A stretch of DNA of 63,996 nt, the filler included, from Malassezia furfur (Eukaryota): NCBI GenBank assembly GCA_052055015.1. It is 3 parts of 3 records of this genome, joined end to end, with 100 filler letters (N's around TTAATTAATTAA, not from the genome) between each part and the next. Parts side by side here need not be neighbours in the genome. Positions count along the whole stretch, not along the records: positions 1 to 23,074 come from JBQJIT010000152.1; positions 23,175 to 46,226 come from JBQJIT010000153.1; positions 46,327 to 63,996 come from JBQJIT010000218.1. One strand, written 5' to 3'. Positions 3,001 to 58,476 of this stretch are shown piece after piece. The position numbers and the translations under genes were made by a program. Position 1 is the stretch's first letter. Every line of letters starts with the position of its first letter. A model generated the notes under the pieces. The model was not told where the DNA came from. It saw only the letters and a program-made list of their open reading frames with translations, and did no database searches.

Positions 3001-4122
3001 GCGCGTCGAGCGGAGGGGCATCGGGCGCCATGCTGTACACAAGGATTACCGCAAACGAGTGCAGTCGGTCGCTCGGCTTCTTAATGCGCAGCGTCTGGCT
3101 CGTGGCCAACGCATCTGCACCGGTGCGCACATTGGCCGACTGCGCCATCAGCGTCGCGTTCGCGGCCTTGTTGGCACCGACGGGCAGCCCAGCGGACCGC
3201 AGGCACTTGGTCATGATAAGGGCAAACTGTGCATCGGTAAACAGACCCGTCTCCTGCCACAGCGCCGGCTTCGCATCGTCGATGGCCGCCGCAGGTGCGT
3301 CGAGCAGCTGGTGCTCGGCGAGGCGCGCGAGGTGGTCGAGCATCTGGTCGTCAAACAGCGACGATTTGAACGTCTCCCACAGGCGGAACATGGCCGGGAG
3401 CCATGCCTGCGGCTCATCAAGCGGTAGAAATTGAACCAGGAATGCCTGTGTCGCGATCACCGAGTTGAGGTCACCGCCATCCATCTGCGGAAGCACAGTC
3501 TGCAGCATGTCGTATGCATCGCGCGGGGGGAAGAACCGCTGCGCGTACTCGGCCACGTCCAGCAAAACGTTGCTGATTTTGCTCGTGGATGCCTTGCGGC
3601 CCTTGTGAAAGATCTCGCGCGCCAGCACATCGTACAGCGGCCGCCAAGGTAGCTCAAGGTCGCTGCGGTCCAACTCACGTTTGGAGCTGCGTCAGTACAT
3701 TTGTAGAGGGCGTACCGCAGCAGACGGATGCACATGCTCCCGGCCGTCTCGGTGAAGCGCGCGTCCAGCGATGTCATCACGGCCAGGTCGTAGTAGAAGC
3801 GCGCGAGTTGCGCACGCCAAGTGCGTGGAACGGGGTATTTGAGCGACAGCAGGCTCTGCAAGTACCGGTTCCATCGCACAAAGCCTACATCAAAGTCTCT
3901 CAGGGACACGCAGTCCACTAGTTTCCCGATAGCCGCCGCGAGCTGAGCCTCGAACTCGACCTGCGTCTCGCATGCGTATGGCAGTTTATCAGTGAATATA
4001 TGTGTAGGCTTCCGGTCACGCGTATGCGTGACCGGCACATCCTCGAGGACGACACCGGCCTCCTCATCCTCGGCGTCAAAGTCCTCGACGGCCTCGAAGT
4101 CGAGAAAGTCCAGCTCGTCCAT
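1..4122 (-). CDS. BLM10: Proteasome activator Blm10/PA200 (PSME4), N-terminal part; runs off the window start. Intron 3687-3715 (29 nt)
   Basis: ATG at 4122 (MDELDFLD...). Removing GTACGC...CTGACGCAG gives RLLRSKRELDRSDLELPWRPLY, then FLVQFLP...WLPAMFRLW, which are typical PA200 N-terminal motifs. Confidence 0.85.
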
Positions 4123-4416
4123 CGTCGTGCGAAGCGACACGATCGGCCACGCGTCCGGGGAAGTGGAGGCCACGCCGCGTCAGCTCCCGGCCGATCAACA
4201 GCTGCGGCCATTACGCACGCGATGACACCTTTTTTTTTTTTTTTGAATATTGTTCAGCATCAGCTTCGCTAAATGAACAAGACATGCTATGGAGACGTCC
4301 AGTCATGTAGTAGTACACAAATGCCACCATGTCATCGGAAAGGTAGCCAAGACCCGCAAGCGTCTCTCCGAGACATTAGATGGGTTGGCCAGCAATCCGT
4401 TCTATAGTGCACACCT

Positions 4417-6120
4417 TCAAGGCTCAGCCTGCGTCTGCTTGACTTCGCCCGCCTCGCCATCGGCCTTGATCTCGTTCTGGAGATCCTCGTCGCGCTCGTT
4501 GATGATCGCGTCGAGCTCCTCGGCGTTGAGGTGGGGCGCAGTAAGCGACTTGTAGCAGGCCGTCGTCATAAAGTGCTTGGCGTTCCAGAAGCCCTCCTTG
4601 TGCTGGTCGGCAAAGAAGAGGTCCATCTCCTCCAGACCACGCTGCTTGGTCTCCGGGAAGAACATGTACACAAACGGAATGAACATCACGTTGAAAGCAC
4701 CGAACATGGTGAACGTGTGGTTGCGCAGGTTCTGGAAAGCAGGGGGCGAAATCATGACGACCGTGAAGTTCCAGATCCAGTTGGAGCACGTCGACAGCGC
4801 AGCGGCCGGCGCACGAATGCGAATGGGCGTCACCTCCGGCGGGTAGAGCCAGGTCATACCGAGCCAGCCGAAAGACCACGGCACGAAGTACATGTAGATG
4901 AAGGCCTCCGCAGTCTTACCGTAGGAGATGAAGTCCTCCTTCGGCAGGTTGTTGTCGTTGCCCTGCATGACCTTGTAGATCATACCCGACATGATCGCAA
5001 AGCAGAGTGCCATACCAGCAGCGCACCAGATCATGAGACGGCGGCGACCAGCAATGTCAATGATGAACACGGCCACCGAAGCAGCCAGGAAGTAGAGAAT
5101 ACCACTGCCACACACCAGAATACGAGTCGGAATATCATCCGAGTTGACCATCTGGAACACCGTGTTGGCATAGTAGGTCAGGTTGTTGATACCAGTCAGC
5201 TGCTGGAACATCTGGGCCGTGCAGGCAATGCACACACGGTAGAAGTTCTGCTCGGGGCCCATCGTGAACAGCTCCTTGTAGGAGAAAGCGCCCATAGCAA
5301 CCTCCTGCTTGTGGATCGAGTCCTCCAGAGCCTGGATTTCCGAAACCACCTCAAAGTCGTCCTCAGGACGGTCACGAAGACGAGAGACCACCGCGCGCGC
5401 CTGGTCGGTCATGCCCTTCTTGACGAGCCAACGGGGAGACTCCGGGATGAAGAACACACCGGCAAGCAGAACAAGCGCAAAGGCGGCCTGGAAGGCAATG
5501 GGGAAGCGCCACTGGACACTGTTCGTGCGCAGGAAGTAGAAGCCGAAGTCGATCCAGTACGAGATCATGACACCACCCGCAAGAAGCGCACCCTCGACGA
5601 ACACGAGGAAACCACGGTTCTTGGGCTTCGACAGCTCCGACTGAAGCATGGGGATCGTTGCGGTGTCTAGACCGTTACCAACACCAGCAATCACACGGCC
5701 AACCGTGAAAGCAGGGAGCTTGTCATCGGCAACCATAATGATCGTACCGATAATCATAATCGAAGAGCCAGCAACCACTGAAGAACGACGACCAATCTGG
5801 TCACCTTTCCACAGCACGAGGATCGAACCAATCAGAGCACCCAGCTCGTAACAACCGACAATCGCACCCTGGATGTTGTCCGAGAACTGTTCGGGGTGAA
5901 GCTGGATATCACGGTAGCTCGTGAGCGTCTCGCCGTTCAGCGAGTACTTGGCAATCTTGGGCATAGTAGAGGCCATCATGGGCTCCTCAATCAGAGCCGA
6001 CATGACACCCTGGTCATAACCGAAGAGCAGGAAACCACAGCCACAAACAAAGGCGATGAGCACCGTCAGCGAAGTGCCGCGGATGTACTGCGCGCCCGGC
6101 ACTTGCGGGAATTGGAACAT
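4417..6120 (-). CDS. MFS sugar porter, Stl1-like (glycerol/sugar:H+ symporter)
   Basis: 567-aa intronless ORF with LFGYDQG, GRR, PESPRWL, QQLTGIN and PETK sugar-porter motifs and about 12 hydrophobic segments. Confidence 0.9.
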   Translation of the reverse strand: MFQFPQVPGAQYIRGTSLTVLIAFVCGCGFLLFGYDQGVMSALIEEPMMASTMPKIAKYSLNGETLTSYRDIQLHPEQFSDNIQGAIVGCYELGALIGSILVLWKGDQIGRRSSVVAGSSIMIIGTIIMVADDKLPAFTVGRVIAGVGNGLDTATIPMLQSELSKPKNRGFLVFVEGALLAGGVMISYWIDFGFYFLRTNSVQWRFPIAFQAAFALVLLAGVFFIPESPRWLVKKGMTDQARAVVSRLRDRPEDDFEVVSEIQALEDSIHKQEVAMGAFSYKELFTMGPEQNFYRVCIACTAQMFQQLTGINNLTYYANTVFQMVNSDDIPTRILVCGSGILYFLAASVAVFIIDIAGRRRLMIWCAAGMALCFAIMSGMIYKVMQGNDNNLPKEDFISYGKTAEAFIYMYFVPWSFGWLGMTWLYPPEVTPIRIRAPAAALSTCSNWIWNFTVVMISPPAFQNLRNHTFTMFGAFNVMFIPFVYMFFPETKQRGLEEMDLFFADQHKEGFWNAKHFMTTACYKSLTAPHLNAEELDAIINERDEDLQNEIKADGEAGEVKQTQAEP

Positions 6121-6766: not shown

Positions 6767-7873
6767 ATGACGAGGAGCGCCAAAATCGTGGCAGCCTGGG
6801 CGTTGGCACTGCTTGCGTTCGTTGCGTCGGTCGCCGCGTCGGATATGGCTGGCCTGGTGACGTCTGCGGTGCCCAACACCACTGTGCTGGACACGGCGGC
6901 GTCGACCAAGTCGCTCGCGAAACGCGGAGGCGCCTTTTCGGGCAGGGCGACGTGGTACGACGTCGAGACCTGGGTCGCAGGGTATGTCGCTGGCTAACGT
7001 ATTAGGGCTTGTGGCCAGTACATTGATAATGACATGCACATCGTCGCACTCAACCAGCCGATGTACGGTGATTTGGACTCGCGGTCGAGCTGGTGCGGCA
7101 AACACATTATGATCGCCAATGGGCTCAAAACGGCCCGTGCGGTGATTATGGACGCATGTCCCGAGACGCGGCAGTGCCATTACGGTGCTTTGGACATGAG
7201 TATGTCGCTCTTCCAGATCTTCCATGACCTGAACCTCGGTGTCTTCGACATCACCTGGTGGGTCATTGATGGAAGCGGCAATGGCAGCAACGGTGGGGGA
7301 GGCGGCGGAGGAAGCAGCGGAAATAACGGCGGAGGAAGCGGCAGCAGCAACAGTGGCGGCAGCAGCAACAGTAACAGCGGAAACAATGGCAAGAAAGGCA
7401 GCGGCAACAGCGGCGGTGACGACGACGACGATGACGATGACGACGATGATGGCGACTCGTCTTCGTCCCGTGCTGCGCCAACGAATGCGCAGCAGTCTGC
7501 ATCGCGTGCGGCTAAGGCCAAGGCTGCGTCGTCGTCCTCTGCGTCGGCTGTGTCGGCAGCGTCGAAGCAGGAAGCGCAGCAGTCTGCCTCGCGTGCCTCT
7601 GTGCTGTCGTCCAAGTCGTCAGCAAGCGCTGCGTCGGCATCCAAAGCGAGTGCTTCAAGCCGCTCGAGTGCTGCAAGCAGTTCGTCGAGCTCGTCCAGCT
7701 CGCAGTCGAGCAGTTCGGGCAGCAGCTCCAGCAGTGGTGCAGGCGTCGCAAGGCCCGGCACTGGCACTGGCGGTGGTGCGAGCAACGATGACCCGCAGGC
7801 GGGGAATCTGCAAAACTTTGTCCGAGTGCTAAACGGGATGTCGATGCTGGTGCATGCGGCTGCGGGCAGCTAA
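6767..7873 (+). CDS. Secreted RlpA-like double-psi beta-barrel (expansin/loosenin-like) protein with Gly/Ser/Asp-rich tail. Intron 6982-7005 (24 nt)
   Basis: Signal peptide and a KR site. Splicing yields GRATWY...GACG...HIVALN...WCGK...IMDACP.C..GALDMS, the DPBB signature. Confidence 0.85.
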
Positions 7874-7955: not shown

Positions 7956-8484
7956 ATGGTGCGCCTGCCGCGTGGCGTTGAGCAGCTGGTAACAGCGTAC
8001 CTCACGGGCGCTCTGGTGCAGCGGGTACGTGGTGCACTGACGCAGCTGAGCCGCTCGCCAACGGTATTACGTGCAACGGAGCGCGTTCTGCACGAATGGG
8101 ACACACTACCCCAGCGGCTTGCGGGGCGGCCCGTGCCTTATACGCCCCGCGACTATGGGCAGCCCGAGGGACGTGTGAGCGACATTGGTGCGTGGTGCCA
8201 CTGACACAGACCATGGTGAGCCGCACGACGAACCGTCGCCATTTCCCGTGTCAGGCAAGTACGGGGGCGATGCGGCACGCATGCGGCGTGGCGCAGCGGC
8301 CGGCCAAGACGATGCGGCGAGTCGTGGCGCAGCGGCTGGCCGTGGCGCAGCGAGACGGGATGGCGCACGCGATACGCCGCAGCGCACGCGTACACGGCCG
8401 GCGCGCGACCCTCGTGACGCGGAGCGCGATGCGGTCGCGCGCGAGATCCGCGCGCTGCAGGACAAACTGCGGCGTAGCGCGTAG
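7956..8484 (+). CDS. Small hypothetical protein. Introns 8025-8045 (21 nt, in frame) and 8188-8209 (22 nt)
   Basis: The 22-nt GT..CTGAC..CAG intron joins ORFs 7854-8204 and 8185-8484 in frame. C-terminus looks coiled-coil (AREIRALQDKLRR). Confidence 0.6.
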
Positions 8485-15900: not shown

Positions 15901-16717
15901 GGAACACCACCGTGCACTCGAACGCCACCAGCGCAAACAGCGAGAAGAGCGACGAGTACCAGTACTCGTCGAGCATCCACAGACCCACACAGAACACCTG
16001 GAACACAAAGAAGGGCGCCACCGCGTGCTCAAAGAACAGGTCCCAGAACCGCGGCACGGGGATCTCGAGCACGTTGTTGCCGTACAGCTTCCGCGCATTC
16101 GCCACGCCCTCCGTGTCGAGGCCCGGGCGGTGCAAAAAGTGCGACAGCTTCGGGTGGACGTCGGCAGGGTACAGCAGCCGGCGGAACGTCGGCTCGCGGA
16201 TGTCCGGCGAGGCGGTGATCGACGTGACGGGCGCCTTGGAGTCGGGCACCGCCAGCACGTACTTGTCCGCCTGGCTCACGAACGAGAATTCGTCGCGCTC
16301 GCCCTCGCGCACCACACGGCGCAGCGGCACCATGCCGCCCTCGCCCTTGTGCGCATGCGGCACAATTTGCACGCGGTCCGCCGAGGTGAGCGAGTTGGCC
16401 TGGTGTCAGCAGCGCACCCACGTACCGTCGTACTCGTGATCCACGCACGCGCACGCACGTTCCAGCGCGTCACGAGGAAGCTGAGCGCGTGCGACGAGGT
16501 GAGGAGCACGGTATAGACAAACGTCCATTCTTCCGAGCGGATGTACCGATCGTACTCCACGTAGTACGCCCACGCCAGCAGCGGGTACAGGAAGAGGTAG
16601 GGAAACACATAGAGGTGGAACAGCAGCGGACGCTCCTTGTGCAGCGTCACGCTGGCAATCTCATCGGACTGCACTGCGACTCGCCTGCGGGGTCAGCGCG
16701 CAGAGCCCAACGTACAT
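12962..16717 (-). CDS. SPF1: P5A-type ATPase Spf1/ATP13A1. Introns 16685-16715 (splits the ATG) and 16400-16425
   Basis: VVPAELPMELS, CFDKTGT, MITGDN, GDGTNDVG and LSGESTP motifs. Splicing links the N-terminal TM exon to the main ORF. Confidence 0.93.
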
Positions 16718-16783: not shown

Positions 16784-17730
16784 ATGGCATCGACCGGCGC
16801 GCAGCCCGTGCGCGGCGATGCAGTGTCGCAGGCCAAGGTCGCGCCAAAACGTTATCCGTTCTGGCTGGGCGGCGTGTCGGCATCGATTGCTGTGCTCTTC
16901 ACGCACCCACTTGATCTCACCAAGCTGCGCATGCAAAACGCACCGCAGAAAACCACCACGCTGCGCCTGTTGCGGAACACGATCCAGAACGAGGGTGTGC
17001 GCGGGCTGTACATCGGTATCTCAGCGAGCGTCCTGCGGCAGATGACGTACAGTCTCACGCGATTCGCCGCCTACGAAAAGATCAAGGAGCGCTTCATCGC
17101 CAACCGCCGGGGGCCACCGCCGTTGTGGATCACCATCACCACCGCCGGGTTCGCGGGTGCCGCGGGCGGACTCGCAGGGAATCCAGCCGACGTGATCCTG
17201 GTGCGCATGACGGGCGACATGTACCGGCCACCGGAGCAACGCTTCAACTATCGCGGCGCAGCCAATGGATTGGCTCGCATTACCAAGGAGGAGGGGCTGC
17301 ATACCCTATTCCGTGGCCTCGCGCCCAACATGGTCCGCGCGGCCCTCATGAACTCTTCTCAGTTGGCATCGTACGTGGCAGGGCGTGTGCGGCATACTGA
17401 CCCAGATATGACTTTTTCAAGGACCTGTTACGATCCTCGGGCCTCTTCACCCCGGGTAGCCTGCCCCACTACCTCGGTTCTTCCCTCCTCGCAGGTACCG
17501 TGGCCACGACCATCTGCTCGCCTGCCGACGTGGTGCGTGCGCGGCTGATGAACGCGCGCGGCAACGAGGGCGGCATGCCCATGCTCGCCAAGTCCCTCCG
17601 CGAAGAGGGACCGCGGTTCCTGTTCCGCGGCTGGCTCCCTTCGTGGATGCGTCTGGCACCGCAGACCGTGATTCTGCTCACCGTGCTCGAAGAGCTCCGC
17701 GCGCTCGTGGACTATCTCCGTGACACATAG
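16784..17730 (+). CDS. DIC1: Mitochondrial dicarboxylate carrier. Intron 17371-17405
   Basis: YPFWLGG, THPLDLTKLRMQ, RQMTYSLTRF, GNPADVILVRM, SQLASYDFFK and CSPADVVRARLM motifs. Confidence 0.88.
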
Positions 17731-23174: not shown

Positions 23175-23176
23175 TC

Positions 23177-24284
23177 ATGTTTGCTCGTGCCGCCCTGCGT
23201 AACAGCGTCCGCGCCCCGGCTTCGGCCCGCTACTTCTCGCAGACTGCGGCTGCGAACCGCAAGGTTGCCGTGCTCGGTGCCTCGGGCGGTATTGGCCAGC
23301 CCGTATGTTGCGCTTCGCTAACACACAGCTCTCGCTCCTGATGAAGCTCAACCCCAAGGTTACCGAGCTCCGCCTGTACGACATCCGCCTCGCTCCGGGT
23401 GTTGCTGCGGATCTCTCGCACATCAACACCCCCGCGGTGACTTCGGGCTACGCCCAGGACGACCTCGAGGGTGCCGTCGACGGTGCGGAGATTGTGCTGA
23501 TCCCCGCCGGTATGCCGCGCAAGCCCGGCATGACCCGTGACGACCTGTTCAACGTACGTGAATCAGCTTATACAGTCGAACGCCTCGATTGTCCGTGACC
23601 TCGCCAAGGTCGTGGCTAAGGTCGCCCCAAAGGCTTACATCGGCGTCATCTCGAACCCCGTCAACTCGACGGTGCCGATCGTCGCTGAGGTGTTCAAGAA
23701 GGCCGGTGTGTACGACCCCAAGCGCCTCTTCGGTGTGACCACGCTCGACACCACGCGCGCGGCCACCTTCCTGTCGGGCATTGCTGGCTCGGACCCGCAG
23801 ACCACCAACGTCCCCGTCATTGGTGGCCACTCGGGTGTGACCATTGTGCCCCTGATCTCGCAGGCCGCCCAGGGTGACAAGGTGCAGGCTGGCGAGCAGT
23901 ACGACAAGCTTGTGCACCGCATCCAGTTCGGTGGTGACGAGGTCGTCAAGGCCAAGGACGGTGCCGGCTCGGCGACGCTCTCGATGGCCTACGCCGCCGC
24001 TGTCTTCACCGAGGGCCTGCTCAAGGGTCTCGACGGTGAGGCGGTGACGCAGTGCACCTTCGTCGAGAGCCCCCTGTTCAAGGACCAGGTCGACTTCTTC
24101 GCCTCGCCCGTCGAGTTCGGCCCCGAGGGTGTGAAGAACATCCCTGCTCTGCCGAAGCTCACCGCCGAGGAGCAGAAGCTGCTCGACGCCTGCCTGCCCG
24201 ACCTTGCCAAGAGTACGTATATGAATGTGGTGGCTGACAACAGACATCAAGAAGGGCGTTGCGTGGGCCGCCGAGAACCCGTAA
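23177..24284 (+). CDS. MDH1: Mitochondrial malate dehydrogenase (Mala f 4-like allergen). Introns 23303-23328, 23554-23575, 24213-24243
   Basis: Presequence, [47 protein letters not shown] and GSATLSMA. All three introns restore conserved MDH sequence. Confidence 0.95.
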
Positions 24285-39027: not shown

Positions 39028-39645
39028 ATGTTCGTTTCGCGGGTGGTGCGCACACCTTGTGTGCGGTTTGTACGCAACGTGCAGAAATCGATGTAGGTGG
39101 CTTGCTTATCCAGGCTCGACATTGGCGGGCATGATTCGCACAACACGGCGAACCTGTCGGTGCTCAAAGCGCGTCCCGGCCGTATCGAGGGCGAGTTTGC
39201 GATCGGCAAGGAGAATCGTAGGTCGTGCCGCTGACGCAGTGAACCGCGCCGGAACGCTTCATGGCGGCCTGATCATGACGCTAGTGGACTCGGTGGGCTC
39301 GCTTGCCGTCGCATCTAAGGGCTGGTATAACACGGGTATCTCGACCGACATCAACGCAACCTTTGTCAAGCCCGGCGGGCGCATGGGCGACAAAGTCACT
39401 GTGCTGGGCGAGGTCGTGGCCATGGGTACGTTTGCGCACTCACGCAGGCAAGACGCTCGCATACACACGCATTGAGCTGCGTGATCCCAAGACGCAGGCA
39501 ATCCTCGGTACGTGACTACGTACTGACCCCAGCCTATGGCAGCCACACCAAGTTCATCCGTATGGCGTTCGGGTCGAAGGAGAACGTCGAGTTTGACGAG
39601 TCCGGCGAGAATGTCGTACAAGGCACGCTGCCGGAGGGCGTGTAA
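39028..39645 (+). CDS. PaaI/ACOT13-like acyl-CoA thioesterase. Introns 39093-39113, 39218-39239, 39426-39447, 39508-39532
   Basis: Spliced NLNRAGTLHGG...LVDSVGSLAV, GISTDIN, MGKTLAY and AYGSHTK hotdog-fold motifs. Confidence 0.88.
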
Positions 39646-42600: not shown

Positions 42601-44017
42601 ACCAAGGCCCCAACGCTTGGACTGGGGTGCGTCTGCCTGTGCTGTTTCGTCCGTGTCACCAGATTCCTCTGCATCCTCGTCTTCGTTTTCGTCTTCGTCG
42701 TCGTACTCGTCTTCGTCGTCGTCCTCATCTTCGTCCGTATCTGCGGCTTCCTGTCCTTCTTCGTCATCTTCGTCCTCATCATCCTCATCCTCGCCTTCGT
42801 CATCACTTTCACTGTCGTCCCCGCTCTGCTCCGTACTCTCCTCGTCAGAATCCGAGTCCACGGCCTTCTTCTTCCCTTTGCTCGCAGAGGCTTTGGGGGC
42901 AGTATCGTCCGGCAGCATACCGCGCAGGCGCATCGCATGCAGCAGCACGGCTTCTTCCTCCTCGTCCGTGTCCTCCTCTTCCGAGACGAGCTCGTCCGTA
43001 GCGACCGAATCGTCGCTGTCCATCGCCTCGTCATTTTCCGGTCGTTTCCACGCGCGTTCCGCGGCAACACGTTTCCGGGACTCTTCGATGGCTTTGTCGA
43101 CGTCGTATACGTGCACGTCCTCATCACCGTCGTCACTGTCGTCGTCACTGTCGTCGCTGTTGTCGCTGCTGCCGTCGGCACTTTCGTCACCGCCGCTGTC
43201 GCTGCTCTGTGTCTTGCCCATGCGTCCGTACCGGATACGGTCCTGCACAGACATGTTCACCTTGCTCTGCGGCCCCGTACGCTTGCGCTTGCGCACGATC
43301 GGTGCAAGGGGCTGGCCGTCGGGGCCCATGGCCAGCGCCGAGCCGACGGCCGGTGTAACGGTGGGCGCCGGCTGTGCAGCAGGTGGGTCGAAGCGACGCG
43401 CTGCCTCGACAATACGCGAGTGCCGTGCATCCGCCTCTTCCTGTGTGGGAAGCTCGGGCTGCTCGGAGTCCTCGACGAGTTCACGGTCCAGCTCTTCAGT
43501 CTCGGGTGCGGCATCGAGGTCTTCGTCCTCGTCGTCCTCGTCCACCTGGAATGCACCACGTTTCGAGGAGGAACTTGCGCCCAACATTTTCTGCACACGT
43601 TCCGCCTCGCGTGCAGCGCGGCCTGTGCCGAGCGTCGCGGCGCTCACCAGCTCGGTGCGGTCGCGGATGTCGGCAGAAGAGTGCGCGAGCTTCTCCAGGA
43701 GCCGCGCCTTTTCCTCCTTGCGCAGCTTGGCCTCGATATACTTGTCGAGTCTGCGTTTCTTCTTGTTGTTGATGCGTGTGTTTTCATCGTTTCCGCCTTC
43801 GCGCAGGAGCTGGAGTGAGTGGACAACCACCTACCTCGCGGCGGCGCCGGTCGGCCTCGGCGAGCGCAGCGCGCGTCGCATCGTCCATTATGAGCGCATT
43901 GCTATTCGCCTCCTGGTCTGCGATGCGCTCGCGCATCGACTTTTTCCCCTTGTGTGAGCCGCCGACGCTCGACTGGCGCGCCTTGGCATTGAACCGCTCG
44001 CGCCGCTTTGGCCGCAT
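39646..44017 (-). CDS. ECM16: DEAH-box RNA helicase Dhr1/Ecm16 (DHX37). Introns 43810-43834 and probably 42126-42149
   Basis: N-terminal RERFNAKARQS and KKKRRLDKYIE, then GETGSGKTTQ, DEAHER, SAT and QRAGRAGR. Confidence 0.92.
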
Positions 44018-44087: not shown

Positions 44088-45181
44088 CTATATGGGGGGC
44101 ACAAAGTCGTTGATGCGGTCGCGCGCATTTTGCGCGATGCATTCGGCGATCCAGCAAATCGAGCGGATCTCCTGCTCTTTGAGTTTGAGCCAGGAGTAGA
44201 AAATGCCGTACTCGAACTGGTTCATCGTCAAAAGACGGTTCACTGTGGTCAGCGTTGCATCGACGTACTCTCCACCTCCAACTCGAACATCTTGTCCTCG
44301 AGCATGTCCGCGTTCACCTGGCCGCCGGCAGACATGCTGTTTCCGTTGCTGTCCTCGAACAGGCGGCGGTATTCCGGCACAGACTCGACGATCGCCTTGA
44401 CCTGGTCGAGTTCGTCGGCCTTGGCGAGCGCATTGTTCCCCGCAGGGTAGAGCTTGCCGATTGTAGGGAAGAGACGCGCGCGCTCCGTCTTGCTCAGCGA
44501 CGTGCCGAACGAGTTGATGGTGATATTGATCGTGCGGCGGTCCGCCTCGAACGCCAGCAGCTCGCCCATGCTCTCGGCGGTCGTGGCGTTGAGCGTCTGT
44601 GTGAACTGGTAAAAGTCTTCCAGGTATGCCTTGTACAGCTTGTTGCGAATGATCTCGATGTTGAGGTCGTCCAGCTCCGACGCCGAGAGACAGTCGCGGA
44701 AGTAGGCAGAGAGCGGCGTCTCGACGAGCACGGTGCGGTACAGCTCCTCGACGCTCGTTGCGACACACAGCGCAGGCAGCGTGTCGAACCAGCCCAGCGG
44801 GTGGCACCGATCGAGCAGCTCGTGCGTGTCGCGGCCGTGGAGCGTGCCCGTAATCAGGAGGATGACGTTGTCGATCATGTACGAGTAGGTGAGATAGTCG
44901 AGAAACTTGCTCAGCGGCGACGTCGAGTTCGTCCGCAGGTACTCAAACTCGCTCACGAGCCGCTGCGTCGCGCGGTTCGCAATCGCCGATGTGCTCAGCG
45001 GAGAAGGCTCGTTCGCGAGGAAGTTGCCGTAATCCGTCGCGGAGAGCTGCATGCGCATATCGTCCAGCGTCTCGCACTGCGTCAGCGCCTGGTAGTTGGG
45101 CCCCGTGAGCATCGAGTTGCGGTACCCGCGCACGATCCCCTCTAGGAAGCCGCCATTGATGTTGAACGTGAGCGCCTCCAT
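44088..45181 (-). CDS. VMA6: V-ATPase V0 subunit d. Intron 44243-44268
   Basis: FNINGGFLEGIVRGY, LTQCETLDD, CHPLGWF, FEADRR and LKLKEQEIR..WIAECIAQ motifs. Confidence 0.95.
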
Positions 45182-48498: not shown

Positions 48499-50378
48499 AT
48501 GTCGGTGATGACGCGTGTAGTGCGCTTGATACAGGGTGCCGGGCGGATTCTCTCGCTGCTACAGCTGCTCTTTTTCCTGCCGCTTGCGCTAGAGCACAAC
48601 CGCGAGACGTTCTTGGCGTTCTCTGCCTCGCTCGCGGCGTTCTACTTTCTGCTGTCCACGCTGCGCTGGGTCACGCAGGGATCCAAGATGGTGTACGTGG
48701 TGAAGGCTATCTCGATGACGCAAAACATCGTCATCCCGATGCTCCTCTTCTCGTGTGCGCGGATTTACTCGCCCCTACCCTCGCAGAACGCACTTATCGA
48801 GGCGCTGCGCAAGAGCGGCAAGCATGCGTCGCCCTGGCTGCAACAGCCCGCGTCGCTCGCCAAGGCGTTCGCCTCGAGCGAGGTGCACGCGTTCCTGCTG
48901 TCCGTGCTGCCTTCCTCGTACGTGGACGGCGAAGAGGAGATCGTGTACCCCACCTGGCTGGGGCAGTCGCTCGTCCTCATCGTCGGTGCAGGGCAGTATC
49001 TCTTGTCGCAGGTGCCCGAGTGGTGGTACTCGCTGCTGCTCTATCTGTCGCCCATGTTTTCGCTGCTCGAGGGCCTCTCGAGTCTGCTCGTGATCCAGTC
49101 GTTCGCGCTCCTCTCGCGCTGGCTCATCAACGACTCGGACCGCACCAAGCGCGGCAAGTGGCAGGGCAGTGCGTTCATGCGCAAGCTGCTCTCGTTTGGC
49201 CTCGAGCCCTCCGAGGTGTGGCAGCTGCTGTTTTTGCTGTGGTCTGCGGTGGTATATGTTTTGTCGGCCGTGGCACTCTACATGTGCTTTGACAGCGCGA
49301 CCGATGGCCGCTCGATGGCGGCCGCAGCGATCGGCGCCAGCTTGGCATCCACCGTGTGGATTTCGGCGATCGCATTTGCCATCCGTAAGGCGAACGTCGT
49401 CGAGACGAGCCTGATGGTACGTGGCCCCACTTACCCCAGTTTGCCTATGTCGTGTTTAATATCTATCAGCTCAGCACCTCGCTCAAACTCGGCACCGATC
49501 CTCTGCAGATGGTGCGCAACTTCAAGGCATCGCGCATCCCCAAACAGGTGCCGCTGTTCATCGCGCAGTCGACCAGCGCCGTGCTCGACCGACTCGTGGA
49601 TGCCGTGGAGCACAGCATGTACGTGCTGTCGGCAGCGAACGAGGTGCTCCCGACGACAATCATCGTCAGCCTGGTGTACCGCCTGATGGTGCTCTACTCG
49701 GCCATCCGCGTACTTCCGCGCATGAATGCACACAGCGCCTACGACCCGCACACAGACGTGCTGCGTCAGCGGCGGAACCAGGCGTGGAGCGAGCGCAAAC
49801 TGAGCGAGGCCCAGGCAAGCACCACGCCGCAGGTCGACGCGCGCGACGCAGATACACGCGCCGCAACTGGGCGCTCCGACGGCAAGTCGGCAGCCGCGTC
49901 CACGCCCGGTGCGCCGCACGGCACCGACACCTCGGCGCCTGCGTCCGCCGATGCGGAGGCGGCGGAGAAGCCGGCCGCAGAAGCCTGTGCAGACACAAGC
50001 GCGGGCAAGCTCGAGACGCTGCTCATGAGTGCCAAGGAGCCCGGCAGCGAGACGGAGCAGGACGTCGCAGAGTATATGCAGCAGGCCAAGCCGTCGCGCG
50101 TGGATGCCGTGGAGAAGGCCGTGGAGCACGCGCTGGAGCGTGCCGAGAAAGTCGTGCAGACGAAGCTTGAGGGAGAGCCGCGTGGCTCGGCGGTGCTCAA
50201 GGTGCTGGTGACCTACTCACGGTTCCTGCTGATTGCAGTGTACAGCCACCTGCTGCTCCTCGATCAGAACCACCAGATCTACTGGCGCCTGATGACCGTC
50301 TTTTTCACGCTGGGTCTTTGGAGTGTTGAGCTGCTACTCAGCAACGAGGACTCGTATCTTGTATCGATGTACGAGTAG
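48499..50378 (+). CDS. ICE2: ER membrane protein Ice2. Intron 49417-49439
   Basis: Multi-TM protein with SPMFSLLEG, NVVETSLMFAY, SLVYRL and YSR..LIAVYSHLLLL motifs of the ICE2 family. Confidence 0.78.
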
Positions 50379-50497: not shown

Positions 50498-51281
50498 CTA
50501 CGGCACAGACGCCGAGGTCGCAAAGCGCATGGCGTGCGTGTGGATGGTGTCAAAGAGCGTGCGCATGCCATCGCTGGGTGAGTGGTGCAGACGTACCCTG
50601 ACGCGGCGCTCACGCCGACAACGTGCCAGTCCGGCTTGAGCGTTGCGGCTGTTGTGTCCTCCTCGACGAAGAGCGCCCAGCGCTTCAGGAGGGTGGTGTA
50701 GATGTGGTCCTGCACGCTTGCGCCCGACACGTGCTCGATCCCGTCGGCGGGCGTGTTGGGGTCGAGCCGGTCGAGTTGCGCTGCGACGACAAGGATCGGC
50801 AGATTACGTGCGGCTGCGTCCTGCACAAGGTGAAACAGAGCGGCACACACGGTGTCGCGGTACGCGCCCTCGGTATCGGTGGTGTTCTGTGCCCAGCGCG
50901 GCGCATCGATCACCCAAACGAGCGCGTGGGCATCCGGAAGGTACTCGTCCCACAATGAGCGCATCGAGGCGGCGCCGCCCAGGTCCCAGAAGTGCACGAT
51001 GCTGCGCTTATAGGTCACGTTGAGGACTGGGTAAGCCGTGCTGCGCGGCAAACGCACCATTCTGCCCAACGGTCGGTGCGATGCGCGCCGAGGGTCCCGG
51101 ACCTTCGCAGTAGATTTCGCGGAACTGGGTAAGCGTGGTGTCGGCGTGCCTTTTCGAGAATCCACGTTTTCCCTGCGCCCTTTAATCCGACGAGCAGCAC
51201 ATGGTACGTAGGCTTCTTGGTGATTTCCGCTGGGTGAGCCCGTGCGCACGCACCATACAGGCCAGCCAGCAGATGGTACAT
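50498..51281 (-). CDS. ARL3: Arl3/ARFRP1-like small GTPase, divergent. Introns 51230-51253, 51125-51149 (GC-AG), 51027-51057, 50574-50596
   Basis: MYHLLAGLY N-terminus, GLKGAGKT, PTVGQN, FWDLGG...RSLW..Y and VSAASGDG motifs. Confidence 0.8.
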
Positions 51282-51419: not shown

Positions 51420-53721
51420 ATGACGATGCTCTGCTCTCTGCGGGCTTCCGCAACGATGCCGCGTGCGCGGCTGTCCTCTGGACGTGCTGCGGCTGCCCTG
51501 AAGGCCGCCTCGATCTCTACGACTGCCGCTCGTCGCCAGGCATCGCCTGCGCCCGAGCCGCCCAAGATGGTCAAGCTGTCGATCAACGGCCAGGAAGTCG
51601 AGGTCGAGCAAGGCACTGCCATCATTCAGGCGTGTGAGAAGGTCGGAGTGCAGATCCCCCGTTTCTGCTACCACGAGCGTGTACGTTGCCTATCCCACTG
51701 ACCGCTAGCTCAACGTCGCCGGCAACTGCCGTATGTGCCTGGTCGAAAGCAAGGGTGCCCCCAAGCCGCTCGCGTCGTGCGCCTTCCCTGCGATGCCCGG
51801 CCAGCAGATCTTCACAGACACGCCGCTCGTCGCCAAGGCGCGTGAGGGTGTGATGGAGTTCCTGCTGCAGAACCACCCGCTTGACTGCCCTATCTGTGAC
51901 TGGGGTGGTGAATGCGATCTGCAGGACCAGTCGATGCGCTACGGTGCGGACCGTTCGCGCTACCACGAGGTCGCCGGCAAGCGTGCGGTTGAGGACAAGT
52001 ACTTTGGCCCGCTTGTCAAGACGGTCATGACGCGCTGCATTCAGTGCACGCGCTGCGTCCGCTACGCCAACGAGGTCGCTGGCGTGCAGGACCTCGGCAC
52101 GACCGGCCGTGGCAACCAGATGCAGATCGGCATGTACGTCGAAAAGATGCTCGACTCGGAGATGTCGGGCAACATTGTTGACCTGTGCCCCGTCGGTGCG
52201 CTGACGTCGCGCCCCCAGGCGTTCCACGGCCGCCCGTGGGAGCTGCGCAAGTTTGAGTCGGTCGATGTGCTGGATGCGGTCGGCAGCAACATCCGTGTGG
52301 ATGCGCGTGACCTGCAGGTGATGCGTGTGCTGCCGCGCACCAACGACGACGTGAACGAGGAGTGGATCAACGACAAGACGCGCTACGCCGTCGACGGTCT
52401 CAAGTACCAGCGCCTTACCACCCCGCTGATCCGCCAGGGTGACCGCTTCGTGCCCGCGTCGTGGCCCGAGGCGATGCGCACCATCGCCGAGGGCCTCGCG
52501 CAGAGCGGCGCGCAGGGCGACGAGATCCAGGGTGTCGCCGGTGCGCTCGCCGACGCCGAGTCGCTCGTGGCGCTCAAGGACCTCGTCAACCGCCTTGGCT
52601 CGGACAACCTCGTGACCGATGAGCCGCTCGGCAACGAGGCGCCCGTGAACGGTGTCGACTTCCGCTCGAACTACACGTTCAACTCGGAGATCCGCGGCCT
52701 GGACGAGGCCGACTACGTGATTCTGATCGGCACGAACCCCCGCCATGAGGCGACGATCATCAACGCCCGCATCCGCAAGAACTACCTGCGCCGCTTCCAG
52801 GACATTGCCCTGATCGGCGAGCCCGTGGACCTCACGTACGAGTACGAGCACCTCGGCACGGACCTCAAGGCCGTCGAGGAGCTCGCGGCGGGCCGCGGCA
52901 AGGGCGCCGAGCGCCTCAAGTCTGCGCAGAAGCCGCTCGTGATCGTGGGCAGTGGCGTGGCGGACCACCCCGACGGCGCGGCGGTGCTCAAGAACGTCGC
53001 CAAGCTGATCGAGTCGAACAAGGGCAAGTTCCTCACGCCCGAGTGGAACGGCTTCAACTTCTTGCAGCGTGCGGCGTCGCGTGTGGCCTCGCGCGACATG
53101 GGCTACACGGGCCGCACCGACATCACCGCGACGCCCAAGTTTGTCTACCTGCTGAACGCCGATGACATCACGGCGCAGCGCATTCCGCAGGACGCGTTTG
53201 TGGTGTATCAGGGCCACCACGGCGACGTTGGCGCGCAGTTCGCGGACGTGTGTCTGCCCGGCCTGGCCTACACGGAAAAGAGCACGACCTACGTCAACAC
53301 CGAGGGCCGTGCGCAGCTCACGCGCGCAGCGGTGAGCGGCGCCGGCGCGGCGCGGGAGGACTGGAAGATCCTGCGTGCGCTCTCCGAGGTGATGGGCGTT
53401 ACGCTGCCCTACGACGACGTGACGGCGGTGCGCCACCGCCTGTTTGATATCTCGCCGACGCTCGTGCGCTACGACACCGTGGAGCGCACCTCGGACGCGG
53501 TGGCGGCCATGGGTCTGGCGCAACTCGCCTCGGCGCCCTCGGCGCCTTCGCTGAACACGCCGCTGCTGCGGCCCATCGAGAACTTCTACCAGACCGACCC
53601 CATCTCGCGGGCATCGCCGACGATGGCCAAGTGCGTGCAGGCGTTCGTGTACAAGATCCCCTCGCGCTACGAGCAGCTCGCCGATGCGATTGGTCCGGAC
53701 GCCGTTGTGGCGCACCCGTAG
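51420..53721 (+). CDS. NDUFS1: NADH:ubiquinone oxidoreductase 75 kDa subunit. Intron 51681-51708
   Basis: [50 protein letters not shown] and DLCPVGAL motifs. Confidence 0.96.
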
Positions 53722-56536: not shown

Positions 56537-56596
56537 ACTTGTAGAATTACGTCGCTTTTGCCCTTTGCCGCCTCTTCCTCCACTTCCCCACCGCAC

Positions 56597-58476
56597 ATGT
56601 CGGACGACCAGGCGCACCGTGCGAGCGACTCCCGTGCAGGCACGCCGGTCGAGCTCTTGCGCAGCGCAGCCGCGCTCATGGATGGTGCGGACCCGCGCAC
56701 CACGCGCGGGATCAACGCGGGGCATGCCATGCCCAGCGCATCGCAGCCCCGTCGTTCGTTCAGCAAAACGTACGTGGGCCGAACGGGTTTGCTCACGCAG
56801 CACGGTGATGGCCGAGGCGGGCCGCCAGCCTTGGTACGACCAGGACGGCCACCCGATCTCCCCTTACATTGTCGGTGTCGCGGGCGGCAGCGCGAGTGGA
56901 AAAACGTCTATCGCGAAAGAGATTCTGCGGCACCTGCCCAACGTGCCTTGGGTCGCGATCGTGTCACAGGACGCCTTCTACCGCCCGCTGAACGCCGCCG
57001 AGACCAAGCTCGCGTTTAAGCAAAACTTTGACTTTGACCACCCCAATGCCATCGACCAGGAGCTGCTTGTACAGTGCATCCGCGACCTGAAGGAGTCGCG
57101 TGCCGTACAAATCCCCGTGTACAGTTTCACCCAGCACCAGCGTACGGACGAGTCGACCTACCTGTACGGGCATGCAGTGGTCGTCGTCGAGGGCCTCTTT
57201 GTGCTACAGGATAGGGCGCTCGTTGACCTGCTGGACCTGAAAATCTTTGTGCAGACCGACCCCGACGTGATGCTTGCACGGCGCATACGCCGCGACATTG
57301 TCGAGCGCGGCCGCTCGATCGACGGCGTGCTAGACCAGTACTTCCGGTTCGTCAAGCCGTCGTTTGACACGTTCGGTACGTGCTCTCTTTGCTGACCCAG
57401 TCGGACCAACGGCACGCTATGCAGACATTATTGTGCCGGGCGCCAACAACGCGGTCGCGATCGATGTGATTGCGCAGCACATTGCCAGACAGCTCACGCG
57501 CAACTACGCATGCCTACTTAACGAGTCCATACCCCGCGCCATGTCGGCTTCGCAGACCCATGGCTTCCCCGCATCGCGCTTGGTCGTCGGGACCTCGGAG
57601 CAAGGCGCGCCGATGCACGCGATCGAACGCGCGCCCTTTAGCGACCCCGTGGCGCCTGCGCACGTCGAAGCGCCCATCGCGATGCATGACGTCAAGCATG
57701 TTGCGCCGCTGCCGCCCAACGTGCTTGTGGTGCGCCAAACGGCCCAGTTGGTCGGTTTGCTCACGCTCCTTCACAATGCCGACACACACTCGAGCGAGTT
57801 TGCGTACGCATGCAAGCGCATCGGTGCGCACGTCGTCGAGACCGCCATGTCGCTTCTGCCGTACCGCCCGTGCGAGGTGCCGCTGCACACCGGCGGCACC
57901 TACACGGGCGTGGAGCTGGACGCGCAGTACATCTGCGGCGTCTCCATCCTGCGCTCTGGCGCGATTCTCGAGGCGCCACTCCGGCGCGCCCTGCCTGCGC
58001 TTGCGCTTGGCTCCTTGCTCATCCAGAGCTCTGATACCAACTACCGCCCACTGCTCTACTCCGTGTCGCTCCCGTCGTTTGTGAAGCAGCGCGACACGGC
58101 GCAGCATACCTATGTGTTCCTAACCGAGGCCCAGATCGGGACGGGCGCCGCCGCCTTTATGGCCGTACGCGTACTGCTTGACCACGGCGTGCCCGAGAAC
58201 CAGATCATTGTGCTGACGCTCCTGGCGTCCGCCAAGAGTGGTGTGTGGGCGCTGCAGCATGCCTTCCCCGGTGTGCGCATCGTTGCTGGCGGTGTGGATC
58301 CTGGTCTGCAAAAGTTTGTGTGGTCGACCGCGCAGCGCCGCCCCCACGCGCGCGCGCGCGCTGCGGCATCGGCCGCGGAGAGCGACAGCGACGCGGAGGA
58401 AACGGTTGCCAAGCGTGTCGTTTTTGCGATCACGCCGGGCTGCGGTCAAATGGGCGACCGATACTGGGGCACATGA
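56597..58476 (+). CDS. URK1: Uridine kinase with C-terminal UPRTase-like domain. Introns 56770-56800, 57376-57400
   Basis: GRQPWY, GVAGGSASGKT, QDAFY, FDHPNA, RRDIVERGR, GVSILRSG and VLLDHGV motifs. Confidence 0.9.

What the first reader, a model, noticed from the sequence alone, without database searches (positions are those of the whole stretch)
3687..57400. Window-wide system of ultra-short (21-36 nt) spliceosomal introns with an apparent 21-nt floor
Seen: about 49 introns reconstructed by hand in 20 genes, none longer than 36 nt, many 21-23 nt and none shorter than 21. They share one architecture: GTRYGT-like donor, a few nt of spacer, a degenerate CTNAC/CTNAT branch site, and AG only about 5-8 nt after the branch A, with no polypyrimidine tract. 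Removal restores conserved motifs (MDH N|SNAS, Ohr FAMGYSACF, DPBB GACG, Blm10 LPWRPLY). Known: Malassezia introns are short, but about 21 nt is the range of ciliates and chlorarachniophyte nucleomorphs, well below typical fungal minima. Inference: a donor-to-branch distance of about 15 nt implies an adapted spliceosome, and gene finders with default minimum intron lengths will mis-annotate these genes.
Basis: partly seen in the sequence, partly recalled or inferred. Interest (0 to 1): 0.8.

Follow-up and report, generated by a model that had tools for sequence, protein, structure and literature searches.

The report
Ultra-short introns in Malassezia furfur
The window is nuclear DNA of the skin yeast Malassezia furfur, and its genes are interrupted by about 50 real but tiny (21-37 base) ordinary introns, a trait of this genus that is already published and already present in public gene models.

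Summary
The window is Malassezia furfur. I rebuilt 20 intron-containing genes with 50 introns (reader: about 49 in 20). Lengths are 21-37 nt, median 23, with 11 of exactly 21 nt and none shorter.

Support by intron:
- 30 of 50 rest on homology across the junction: ortholog spliced alignments, or Pfam/PDB coordinates that abut.
- 17 are needed to keep the reading frame open.
- 3 rest on the motif alone.

The architecture is as described: GTACGT-like donor, spacer of at least 6 nt, CTNAY branch site, AG 5-8 nt after the branch A, and no room for a pyrimidine tract. The motif is about 20-fold enriched at spacer 6 and at chance level below it.

The public M. furfur OPT protein already implies eleven of these introns, six of them 21 nt. 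Papers report a mean intron of 30 bp in M. sympodialis and a median of 30 in M. restricta.

The mis-annotation inference is supported by two faulty public models. The "adapted spliceosome" was not testable. No RNA data could be used. The explicit 16 + 5 nt floor was not found in print.

The parts
3687..3715 (-). 29-nt intron, proteasome activator Blm10/PSME4 gene
   Evidence: Removal joins the exon with BLM10_N to the exon with HEAT_PSME4_mid in one open frame. Length is not a multiple of 3.
6982..7005 (+).
   Evidence: Carries an in-frame stop if retained; the model is open after removal. No family hit.
8025..8045 (+). 21-nt candidate intron, 162-aa protein of unknown family
   Evidence: Motif only: multiple of 3 with no in-frame stop. 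Consensus donor and branch.
8188..8209 (+). 22-nt intron, same 162-aa gene
   Evidence: Not a multiple of 3 and has an in-frame stop; removal is needed for an open frame.
16685..16715 (-). 31-nt intron of the P5A-ATPase (Spf1) gene that splits the start codon after its second base
   Evidence: Residues just after this acceptor align with orthologs in 7 of 10 alignments, and three orthologs start 1-3 residues before that point. The upstream frame has a stop and no other ATG. The start-codon split is inferred.
16400..16425 (-). 26-nt intron, P5A-ATPase gene
   Evidence: Recovered in 10 of 10 ortholog spliced alignments.
17371..17405 (+). 35-nt intron, mitochondrial carrier gene
   Evidence: Mito_carr repeats lie on both exons. 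Not a multiple of 3, so removal is needed.
23303..23328 (+). 26-nt intron, malate dehydrogenase
   Evidence: Exon 1 ends at residue 43 of chain 2dfd_A and exon 2 starts at residue 44.
23554..23575 (+). 22-nt intron, malate dehydrogenase
   Evidence: Ldh_1_N profile positions 17-92 on one exon and 94-141 on the next.
24213..24243 (+). 31-nt intron, malate dehydrogenase
   Evidence: Not a multiple of 3; removal is needed to reach the stop codon.
25382..25404 (-). 23-nt intron, Ca3427-like binding-protein gene
   Evidence: Exact in 5 of 11 spliced alignments; shifted variants in 3 more.
25167..25187 (-). 21-nt intron, same gene
   Evidence: Found in 10 of 11 spliced alignments.
24917..24938 (-). 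22-nt intron, same gene; boundaries ambiguous (alternative 24910-24934, 25 nt)
   Evidence: An intron is called here in 10 of 11 alignments: the 22-nt form in 2, the 25-nt form in 7, another form in 1. The 22-nt form has the consensus donor and uses the first AG after the branch.
24872..24892 (-). 21-nt intron, same gene; with the previous one it flanks a 24-nt micro-exon
   Evidence: Found in 10 of 11 spliced alignments.
25764..25785 (-). 22-nt intron, 253-aa protein of unknown family
   Evidence: Not a multiple of 3; removal is needed for an open frame. No family hit.
27234..27258 (-). 25-nt intron, DnaJ-domain protein
   Evidence: The DnaJ profile (1-63 of 63) ends at the exon end. Not a multiple of 3. 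The 55-nt alternative was rejected.
27047..27067 (-). 21-nt candidate intron, DnaJ-domain protein
   Evidence: Motif only: multiple of 3 with no in-frame stop.
28927..28947 (+). 21-nt intron 1 of 13, OPT oligopeptide transporter
   Evidence: Found in 8 of 8 ortholog spliced alignments.
28971..28991 (+). 21-nt intron 2, OPT
   Evidence: Found in 7 of 8 alignments.
29013..29033 (+). 21-nt intron 3, OPT
   Evidence: Found in 7 of 8 alignments.
29100..29122 (+). 23-nt GC-AG intron 4, OPT
   Evidence: Found in 7 of 8 alignments. A 32-nt GT-AG alternative seen by eye was not chosen by any alignment.
29353..29373 (+). 21-nt intron 5, OPT
   Evidence: Found in 7 of 8 alignments.
29415..29439 (+). 25-nt intron 6, OPT
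   Evidence: Found in 7 of 8 alignments. Same position and phase as a 25-nt intron in metagenome loci L001/L002.
29524..29546 (+). 23-nt intron 7, OPT
   Evidence: Found in 6 of 8 alignments.
29566..29593 (+). 28-nt intron 8, OPT
   Evidence: Found in 5 of 8 alignments.
29612..29632 (+). 21-nt intron 9, OPT
   Evidence: Found in 6 of 8 alignments.
29725..29745 (+). 21-nt intron 10, OPT
   Evidence: Found in 6 of 8 alignments.
29777..29799 (+). 23-nt intron 11, OPT
   Evidence: Found in 7 of 8 alignments.
30050..30071 (+). 22-nt intron 12, OPT; read through in the public M. furfur model
   Evidence: Found in 6 of 8 alignments. Same position and phase as a 25-nt intron in L001/L002.
30155..30176 (+). 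22-nt intron 13, OPT
   Evidence: Found in 6 of 8 alignments. Same position and phase as a 28-nt intron in L001/L002.
32205..32227 (-). 23-nt intron, HAD-family hydrolase
   Evidence: Hydrolase_6 lies on the upstream exon and Hydrolase_like on the downstream exon. Not a multiple of 3.
33031..33052 (+). 22-nt intron, Ohr/OsmC peroxidase
   Evidence: Exon 1 ends at residue 49 of 9jx6_B. Exon 2, from its 2nd residue, starts at residue 52, which leaves room for the split codon plus one residue.
33294..33319 (+). 26-nt intron, Ohr
   Evidence: Not a multiple of 3; removal is needed to reach the stop.
33619..33642 (+). 24-nt intron, Yos1
   Evidence: Yos1 profile positions 1-26 on exon 1 and 28-63 on exon 2. 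In-frame stop if retained.
33751..33787 (+). 37-nt intron, Yos1; the longest found
   Evidence: Not a multiple of 3; removal is needed to reach the stop.
39093..39113 (+). 21-nt intron, THEM2-like thioesterase
   Evidence: In-frame stop if retained; the model is open after removal.
39218..39239 (+). 22-nt intron, thioesterase
   Evidence: Not a multiple of 3 and has an in-frame stop. The next exon aligns with THEM2 residues 50-106 from its first residue.
39426..39447 (+). 22-nt intron, thioesterase
   Evidence: Not a multiple of 3; removal is needed.
39508..39532 (+). 25-nt intron, thioesterase
   Evidence: Not a multiple of 3 and has an in-frame stop.
43810..43834 (-). 25-nt intron, Dhr1/DHX37-like helicase
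   Evidence: Not a multiple of 3; removal is needed.
42126..42149 (-). 24-nt candidate intron, Dhr1/DHX37-like helicase
   Evidence: Multiple of 3 with no in-frame stop. Read through, the loop between the two helicase motifs is 7 residues longer than in yeast Dhr1 and 12 longer than in DHX37. This is weak support.
44243..44268 (-). 26-nt intron, V-ATPase subunit d
   Evidence: vATP-synt_AC39 profile positions 1-289 on one exon and 295-338 on the next.
49417..49439 (+). 23-nt intron, ICE2
   Evidence: The ICE2 profile lies on both exons (6-148 and 218-404), not abutting. Not a multiple of 3.
51230..51253 (-). 24-nt intron, ARL3-like GTPase
   Evidence: Found in 2 of 5 spliced alignments, the only 2 proteins that cover this region.
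51125..51149 (-). 25-nt GC-AG intron, ARL3-like GTPase
   Evidence: Found in 2 of 5 alignments, the only 2 that cover this region. Arf profile positions 12-33 lie on the preceding exon.
51027..51057 (-). 31-nt intron, ARL3-like GTPase
   Evidence: Found in 2 of 5 alignments, the only 2 that cover this region.
50574..50596 (-). 23-nt intron, ARL3-like GTPase
   Evidence: Found in 4 of 5 alignments; the fifth protein is a read-through ORF call.
51681..51708 (+). 28-nt intron, NADH dehydrogenase 75-kDa subunit
   Evidence: Fer2_4 profile positions 3-40 on exon 1 and 48-81 on exon 2.
56770..56800 (+). 31-nt intron, uridine kinase/UPRTase fusion gene
   Evidence: Not a multiple of 3; removal is needed.
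57376..57400 (+). 25-nt intron, uridine kinase/UPRTase gene
   Evidence: The PRK profile (1-175 of 196) ends at the exon end. The next exon aligns with human UCK2 residues 199-229 from its 2nd residue, which rejects the 49-nt alternative.

Best explanation
These are ordinary major-type (U2-dependent) spliceosomal introns of Malassezia furfur, shrunk until little is left but the splice signals.

Each intron has five parts:
- a 6-nt donor, mostly GTACGT, which would pair with U1 and then U6;
- a spacer of at least 6 nt;
- a 5-nt CTNAY branch site, which would pair with U2;
- 2-5 further bases;
- the first AG.

The minimum of each part adds up to 21 nt: branch A at position 16, plus 5 nt to the 3' end. 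That sum gives the sharp floor.

With only 5-8 nt between branch and AG there is no pyrimidine tract. The 3' site is therefore probably chosen by proximity to the branch, and the introns are recognised across the intron rather than across exons, some of which are only 18-24 nt long.

Shown here: the sequence architecture, its enrichment over chance, and restoration of conserved proteins.

Inferred: the pairing partners, the way the 3' site is chosen, and that splicing takes place at all, because no RNA data were used.

The trait is the published short-intron habit of the genus Malassezia.
For: Organism:
- OPT exon 1 and the large P5A-ATPase exon are about 100% identical to proteins named Malassezia furfur.

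Reality of the introns:
- All 13 OPT introns are recovered together with three orthologs (P0009, P0014, P0015), and each is found in 5-8 of 8 alignments.
- Four ARL3 introns are recovered with both full-length orthologs.
- Four introns of the Ca3427-like gene and two of the P5A-ATPase gene are recovered likewise.
- Profile or structure coordinates abut across seven further junctions.
- Three OPT introns sit at the same codon and phase as 25-28-nt introns in an unnamed related species, while the intron sequences differ.

Signals:
- 50 of 50 have G at +5 and a CTNAY; the branch-to-end distance is 5-8 nt in 50 of 50.

Prior knowledge:
- M. sympodialis curated set: 5350 introns, mean 30 bp, 5271 supported by RNA-seq (PMC5389616, Table 2 passage).
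- M. restricta: average 37.2, median 30.0 (PMC9241646, Table 1 passage).
- Minimum intron settings of 20 and 15 (PMC6473144, passage).
- 'Very short introns' (PMC7426719, passage).
Against: - No RNA evidence was available.
- 3 of 50 introns rest on the motif alone, and one has ambiguous boundaries of 22 or 25 nt.
- The sample is 50 introns from one 64-kb window, so a floor at 21 may not hold genome-wide.
- In-frame introns of 12-18 nt without stop codons would escape the open-frame test. Only the four ortholog-aligned genes were checked for them.
- My first intron model was trained on motif-selected cases. The spliced alignments asked only for GT/GC...AG.
- The published means for two other species (30 bp) are longer than the 24 nt found here, so 'same as published' holds for the kind, not for the exact distribution.
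Confidence: 0.9

Rival explanations
1. The floor at 21 nt is a sampling effect of one window. Shorter spliceosomal introns (15-20 nt) exist elsewhere in the genome at low frequency, so there is no hard mechanical limit at 16 + 5 nt.
For: Only 50 introns were seen. A public M. furfur model contains a 16-nt 'intron' at 16433-16448. Spliceosomes of other lineages handle 15-16-nt introns (Stentor; passage in PMC13644364).
Against: The mode sits at the minimum: 11 introns of 21 nt and none of 20 nt or less. The strict motif with spacers 0-5 occurs at chance level, 3 against 4.7, while spacer 6 gives 15 against 0.73. The 16-nt 'intron' belongs to a model whose N-terminus is out of frame with the region conserved in 7 of 10 orthologs.
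Confidence: 0.2
2. Splicing of these introns needs a specially adapted or reduced spliceosome (changed snRNAs, or lost U2AF, SF1 or second-step factors), and not a standard fungal one.
For: There is no room for a pyrimidine tract: 2-5 nt lie between the branch pentamer and the AG in 50 of 50 introns. The branch A sits only 15 nt after the first base in 14 introns. From recall, not from a call: in budding yeast Slu7 and Prp18 become dispensable in vitro when the branch-to-3'-site distance is very short.
Against: Nothing here tests it. No genome is held, and no snRNA gene lies in the window: the Rfam scan found only one tRNA. The signals are the canonical GTRNGT, CTNAY and YAG of fungi, so no new recognition rule is required by the sequence.
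Confidence: 0.3
3. Many of the short 'introns' are chance GT...AG matches, forced by hand to keep reading frames open in GC-rich DNA where all frames tend to be open.
For: Open frames are no guide here. Bridging of open frames was as common with control dinucleotides as with GT...AG. The loose motif occurs 36 +/- 5.6 times in shuffles against 59 observed. At least two same-strand motif hits inside genes are not introns: 9209-9231 and 53309-53329 lie inside unbroken Pfam matches.
Against: 30 of 50 junctions are supported by homology across the junction. There is strong length-specific enrichment. Positions are conserved in another species.
Confidence: 0.03

Closest known systems
Short introns of Malassezia sympodialis and M. 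restricta (PMC5389616, PMC9241646, PMC6473144, PMC7426719; passages read)
   Same: Same genus, same kind of intron, a few tens of bases long. In those species they are supported by RNA-seq, and annotators already lower the minimum intron length to 10-20.
   Different: The published figures are a mean of 30 bp (M. sympodialis) and an average of 37 and median of 30 (M. restricta). This M. furfur window has a median of 23 and a mean of 24.4. I found no printed statement of a 21-nt minimum or of the branch-site spacing. Supplementary Figure S8 of PMC5389616 is a picture that I could not read.
Public GenBank gene models of M. furfur (proteins P0001 and P0085)
   Same: P0001 implies 11 of the 13 OPT introns found here, including six of 21 nt. 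P0085 implies the 26-nt P5A-ATPase intron.
   Different: P0001 reads through the 12th intron and is truncated. P0085 misses the intron that splits the start codon and uses a spurious 16-nt intron.
Ultra-short introns of microsporidia (Encephalitozoon, 23-30 nt; named in PMC13644364 and in earlier notes e1-619308 and e1-619461; details recalled)
   Same: Fungal lineage. The intron length is close to the sum of the signals, and the branch site lies next to the 3' end.
   Different: From recall: microsporidia have only tens of introns per genome, a reduced spliceosome and inefficient splicing. Here there are 50 introns in 64 kb of a free-living, culturable yeast.
Tiny introns of ciliates (Paramecium about 25 nt, Stentor 15-16 nt; passage in PMC13644364) and of chlorarachniophyte nucleomorphs (18-21 nt; recalled)
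   Same: The length range is the same.
   Different: The lineages are unrelated. From recall, Paramecium avoids introns that are multiples of 3 and lack stop codons. Here 15 of 50 introns are multiples of 3 and 8 of those lack an in-frame stop, so no such avoidance is seen.

Membership tests
Major (U2-type) spliceosomal introns | GT-AG (rarely GC-AG) termini | tested here: met
   48 of 50 are GT-AG and 2 of 50 are GC-AG.
Major (U2-type) spliceosomal introns | Donor consensus GTRNGT, able to pair with U1 and U6 | tested here: met
   The donor is GTACGT in 27 introns, GTATGT in 9, GTGCGT in 5 and GTAGGT in 3. G at +5 in 50 of 50. The pairing itself is inferred.
Major (U2-type) spliceosomal introns | Branch-site YTNAY upstream of the 3' site | tested here: met
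   CTNAY is present in 50 of 50, with the A 5-8 nt from the 3' end. Use of this A as the branch point is not shown.
Major (U2-type) spliceosomal introns | Removal restores a conserved protein | tested here: met
   30 of 50 junctions are supported by homology. All 20 models are open.
Major (U2-type) spliceosomal introns | Spliced RNA and lariat observed | not testable with these tools
Published Malassezia short-intron class | Host is a Malassezia species | tested here: met
   Best hits are named Malassezia furfur at about 100% identity.
Published Malassezia short-intron class | Introns of a few tens of bases, about one per gene | tested here: met
   Median 23 nt; 50 introns in about 36 gene models. 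Compare 5350 introns in 4493 genes and a mean of 30 bp in M. sympodialis (PMC5389616).
Minor (U12-type) introns | Long, rigid donor and branch consensus of the U12 class | tested here: not met
   The donors are GTACGT-like, and none of the 50 shows another class. The U12 consensus itself is recalled.
Ciliate-type tiny introns under translational surveillance | Deficit of introns that are multiples of 3 and lack in-frame stops | tested here: not met
   15 of 50 are multiples of 3, and 8 of those 15 have no in-frame stop. The sample is small.
Microsporidian constrained introns | Very few introns per genome in a microsporidian | tested here: not met
   50 introns in 64 kb of a basidiomycete yeast.

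The most novel reading that the evidence does not exclude
M. furfur may have the shortest intron class of any culturable, non-microsporidian fungus. It would be shorter than the values printed for M. sympodialis and M. restricta, with a hard limit of 21 nt made of a 16-nt donor-to-branch segment plus 5 nt from branch to 3' end. This limit, and any loss or relaxation of 3'-site and second-step factors that goes with it, would not yet be described. Because M. furfur can be transformed, it would then be a handy genetic model for the minimal size of a spliceosomal intron.
Probability: 0.3. Interest if true: 0.5.

Novelty: already known. Interest (0 to 1): 0.3.

Why it matters
The practical point is annotation. 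Two of the three public M. furfur models I could compare are wrong because of these introns, and ORF callers used on public assemblies translate straight through them (protein P0080). Anyone annotating Malassezia needs a minimum intron length well under 21 nt.

For splicing biology, the clean 6 + 6 + 5 + 2 + 2 nt minimum in a transformable yeast could be used to ask how short a donor-to-branch segment the spliceosome tolerates. A 2026 paper on ultra-short introns lists ciliates, microsporidia and dicyemids as the exceptions and does not mention Malassezia. The trait seems little known outside Malassezia genomics, even though it is in print.

Tried and rejected
Tools that gave nothing:
- Whole genome: none is held, so no snRNA or splicing-factor survey was possible.
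- The PDB search with the 34-aa thioesterase exon found nothing.
- Earlier notes of this scan hold nothing on this genome or on Malassezia.

Methods that failed:
- Bridging of open frames, with control dinucleotides, is uninformative in this GC-rich DNA. An earlier version timed out.
- My first gene-finder runs chained genes through long false introns.

Longer alternatives rejected:
- 57376-57424 (49 nt), by the UCK2 alignment.
- 27204-27258 (55 nt) and 25364-25404 (41 nt), by reading the junctions and, for the latter, by orthologs.
- 16674-16715 (42 nt), because it would delete residues conserved in orthologs.
- 51002-51057 (56 nt), by orthologs.

Motif hits rejected as introns:
- 9209-9231 and 53309-53329 lie inside unbroken Pfam matches.
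- 32678-32706 lies upstream of the likely start codon. It could be a 5'-UTR intron; this was not resolved.
- 29954-29977 is an in-frame alignment gap without a branch motif.
- 50710-50730 is likewise an alignment gap.

Literature: eight searches found no paper stating a 21-nt minimum or the branch spacing for Malassezia.

Full report
**What the window is.** It is gene-dense eukaryotic DNA, 55-68% G+C. Translated exons match fungal families. The first exon of an oligopeptide transporter (OPT) and the large exon of a P5A-type ATPase are about 100% identical to proteins named Malassezia furfur. The next best hits are other Malassezia species at 85-87%. At least one residue differs from the public M. 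furfur protein, so the window probably comes from another strain or assembly. Everything below therefore rests on DNA and protein comparison, not on RNA.

**Is the motif more than chance?** A strict pattern (GT[AG]NG[TC], a spacer, CTNA[CT], a few bases, AG) has 59 distinct hits on both strands, against 36 +/- 5.6 in 100 dinucleotide-preserving shuffles.
- The hits pile up at 21-26 nt. There are 29 at 21-23 nt against about 4 expected, and almost none above 32 nt, where the shuffles put about 17.
- Resolved by spacer length, the pattern is at chance level for spacers of 0-5 nt (3 observed, 4.7 expected). It jumps to 15 against 0.73 at spacer 6 and 10 against 0.75 at spacer 7.
- Open reading frames alone are useless as a guide in this DNA. 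Control dinucleotides bridge open frames as often as GT...AG does.

**Gene models.** A small dynamic-programming gene finder plus manual inspection gave 20 intron-containing genes among about 36 models. With the final intron set, all 20 spliced models are open from ATG to stop; the gene cut by the window edge is open to that edge. The set holds 50 introns: 21 nt x11, 22 x9, 23 x7, 24 x4, 25 x6, 26 x4, 28 x2, 29 x1, 31 x4, 35 x1, 37 x1, with a median of 23 and a mean of 24.4. The only deviation is one 37-nt intron.

**Homology across junctions, by spliced alignment.** I wrote a protein-to-DNA spliced aligner that asks only for GT or GC...AG and allows 10-400 nt.
- OPT: eight orthologs, from M. 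furfur to Cryptococcus, recover each of the 13 introns in 5-8 of 8 alignments. Three orthologs recover all 13 together.
- ARL3-like GTPase: both full-length orthologs give four introns, one of them GC-AG. The last intron is found in 4 of 5 alignments.
- Ca3427-like gene: four introns are found. Two of them appear in 10 of 11 alignments. One has ambiguous boundaries, 22 or 25 nt.
- P5A-ATPase: the 26-nt intron is found in 10 of 10 alignments.

**Homology across junctions, by abutting coordinates.**
- Pfam profile coordinates abut across four more junctions: MDH, V-ATPase d, the NADH dehydrogenase 75-kDa subunit and Yos1.
- PDB chain coordinates abut across three more: MDH intron 1, Ohr intron 1 and the second uridine kinase intron.

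**Totals by kind of support.** 30 of 50 introns are supported by homology. One search counted 28, and searches added two. A further 17 must be removed to keep the frame open, and 3 rest on the motif alone. One of those three gets weak support from loop length in Dhr1 homologs.

**Conservation in another species.** Six unnamed metagenome contigs encode OPT orthologs at 72-73% identity. In one species (L001/L002) the gene has four introns of 25-28 nt. Three of them lie at the same codon and phase as introns of the window (25, 22 and 22 nt there), with unrelated intron sequence. In another species (L003, L004, L006) the gene has none. Conserved positions with diverged sequence are what real introns show. 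Intron number also varies widely between relatives: 13, 4 and 0.

**Anatomy.**
- The donor is GTACGT in 27 of 50, GTATGT in 9, GTGCGT in 5 and GTAGGT in 3. G at +5 in 50 of 50 and T at +6 in 47 of 50.
- The branch motif is CTGAC in 19, CTAAC in 9, CTCAC in 9, CTTAC in 7 and CTNAT in 6.
- Between the branch pentamer and the AG lie 2 nt (31 introns), 3 (12), 4 (5) or 5 (2), mostly C or G. There is no pyrimidine tract.
- The spacer between donor hexamer and branch pentamer is never under 6 nt: 6 in 14 introns and 7 in 12.
- The floor is therefore 6 + 6 + 5 + 2 + 2 = 21 nt.
- Intron phases are even (15, 17, 18). 15 of 50 lengths are multiples of 3, and 8 of those lack an in-frame stop. The ciliate-style avoidance of such introns is therefore not seen.
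- Internal exons can be as short as 18, 19, 21, 23 and 24 nt.

**How it most likely works.** The signals are the ordinary fungal ones, so the simplest reading is standard U2-type splicing with recognition across the intron. The 3' site would be the first AG a few bases after the branch. That the branch A of CTNAY is used, and that U1, U6 and U2 pair as usual, is inferred. Whether the machinery is altered could not be tested. The Rfam scan of the window found only one tRNA.

**What is already known.**
- M. sympodialis: the curated annotation has 5350 introns, a mean size of 30 bp, and 5271 (99%) supported by RNA-seq. TopHat was run with introns of 10-2000 bp (PMC5389616: passages, section 10). 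Its Supplementary Figure S8, the length distribution, is a picture I could not read.
- M. restricta: average 37.2 and median 30.0 nt, with 2150 introns (PMC9241646, Table 1 passage). It was annotated with a minimum intron of 20 and then 15 (PMC6473144, passage).
- A review says Malassezia genes contain 'very short introns' (PMC7426719, passage).
- The public M. furfur OPT protein aligns to the window with eleven introns of 21-28 nt spliced out.

In eight searches I found no statement of a 21-nt minimum or of the branch spacing. A 2026 paper on ultra-short introns does not mention Malassezia.

**Mis-annotation.**
- The public OPT model reads through the 22-nt intron 30050-30071. It ends at 697 aa, against 746-749 aa in three named Malassezia orthologs and 725 aa in a fourth.
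- The public P5A-ATPase model starts at an out-of-frame ATG, uses a 16-nt 'intron' and lacks the N-terminal hairpin domain that most orthologs carry.
- The ortholog alignments instead point to a start codon that is split after its second base by the 31-nt intron 16685-16715. This is an inference.
- No NCBI M. furfur model of the ARL3-like gene appeared in the 78-249 aa range. An ORF-caller protein from public assemblies translates straight through two of its introns.

**Verdict.** The biology is the known short-intron habit of Malassezia, here in M. furfur with somewhat shorter introns than printed for two other species. The remaining open points are the hard 21-nt floor and its mechanism. Both need RNA data and a genome-wide survey.

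Noticed in passing
window 16685-16717 (-): The start codon of the P5A-ATPase (Spf1) gene appears to be split after its second base by a 31-nt intron. The public M. furfur model misses this and has a wrong N-terminus with a 16-nt 'intron' at 16433-16448.
   Followed up: partly
window 23100-39700 compared with the rest: 32 of the 50 introns lie in 23.1-39.6 kb. G+C there is 0.545-0.59, against 0.63-0.68 in most of the window. Genes there have lower GC3, 0.56-0.77 for most. The link between lower G+C and higher intron density is unexplained.
   Followed up: no
window 28927-30176 (+): All 13 OPT introns sit in the 3' 1.25 kb of the gene, behind an intron-free 1.1-kb first exon. They are separated by micro-exons of 18-31 nt. 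Orthologs in two unnamed related species have 4 and 0 introns. Whether this reflects gain or loss was not determined.
   Followed up: partly
window 29100-29122 (+) and 51125-51149 (-): Two GC-AG introns (23 and 25 nt) with otherwise normal branch and acceptor. Both are supported by ortholog alignments.
   Followed up: yes
window 61423-61526 (+): Rfam finds a tRNA spanning 104 nt against a 71-position model, which suggests a tRNA intron. ARAGORN did not report it. It called instead a tRNA-Leu at 11-100, inside the Blm10 coding region, which is probably false.
   Followed up: no
window 23075-23118, 23131-23174, 46227-46270, 46283-46326: Four runs of exactly 44 N, in two pairs 12 nt apart. They look like masked stretches. 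The gene models next to them (21597-23126 and 45269-46282) are therefore uncertain.
   Followed up: no
window 32678-32706 (-) and 6680-6702 (-): Two consensus intron-like motifs (29 and 23 nt) lie just upstream of the likely start codons of the HAD hydrolase and sugar transporter genes. They may be 5'-UTR introns or chance hits.
   Followed up: partly
window 50488-51060 (-): A protein in public assembly-derived collections (P0080, 191 aa) is an ORF call that starts inside the 31-nt ARL3 intron and reads through the last intron. It shows how prokaryote-style gene calling mistranslates this genome.
   Followed up: yes
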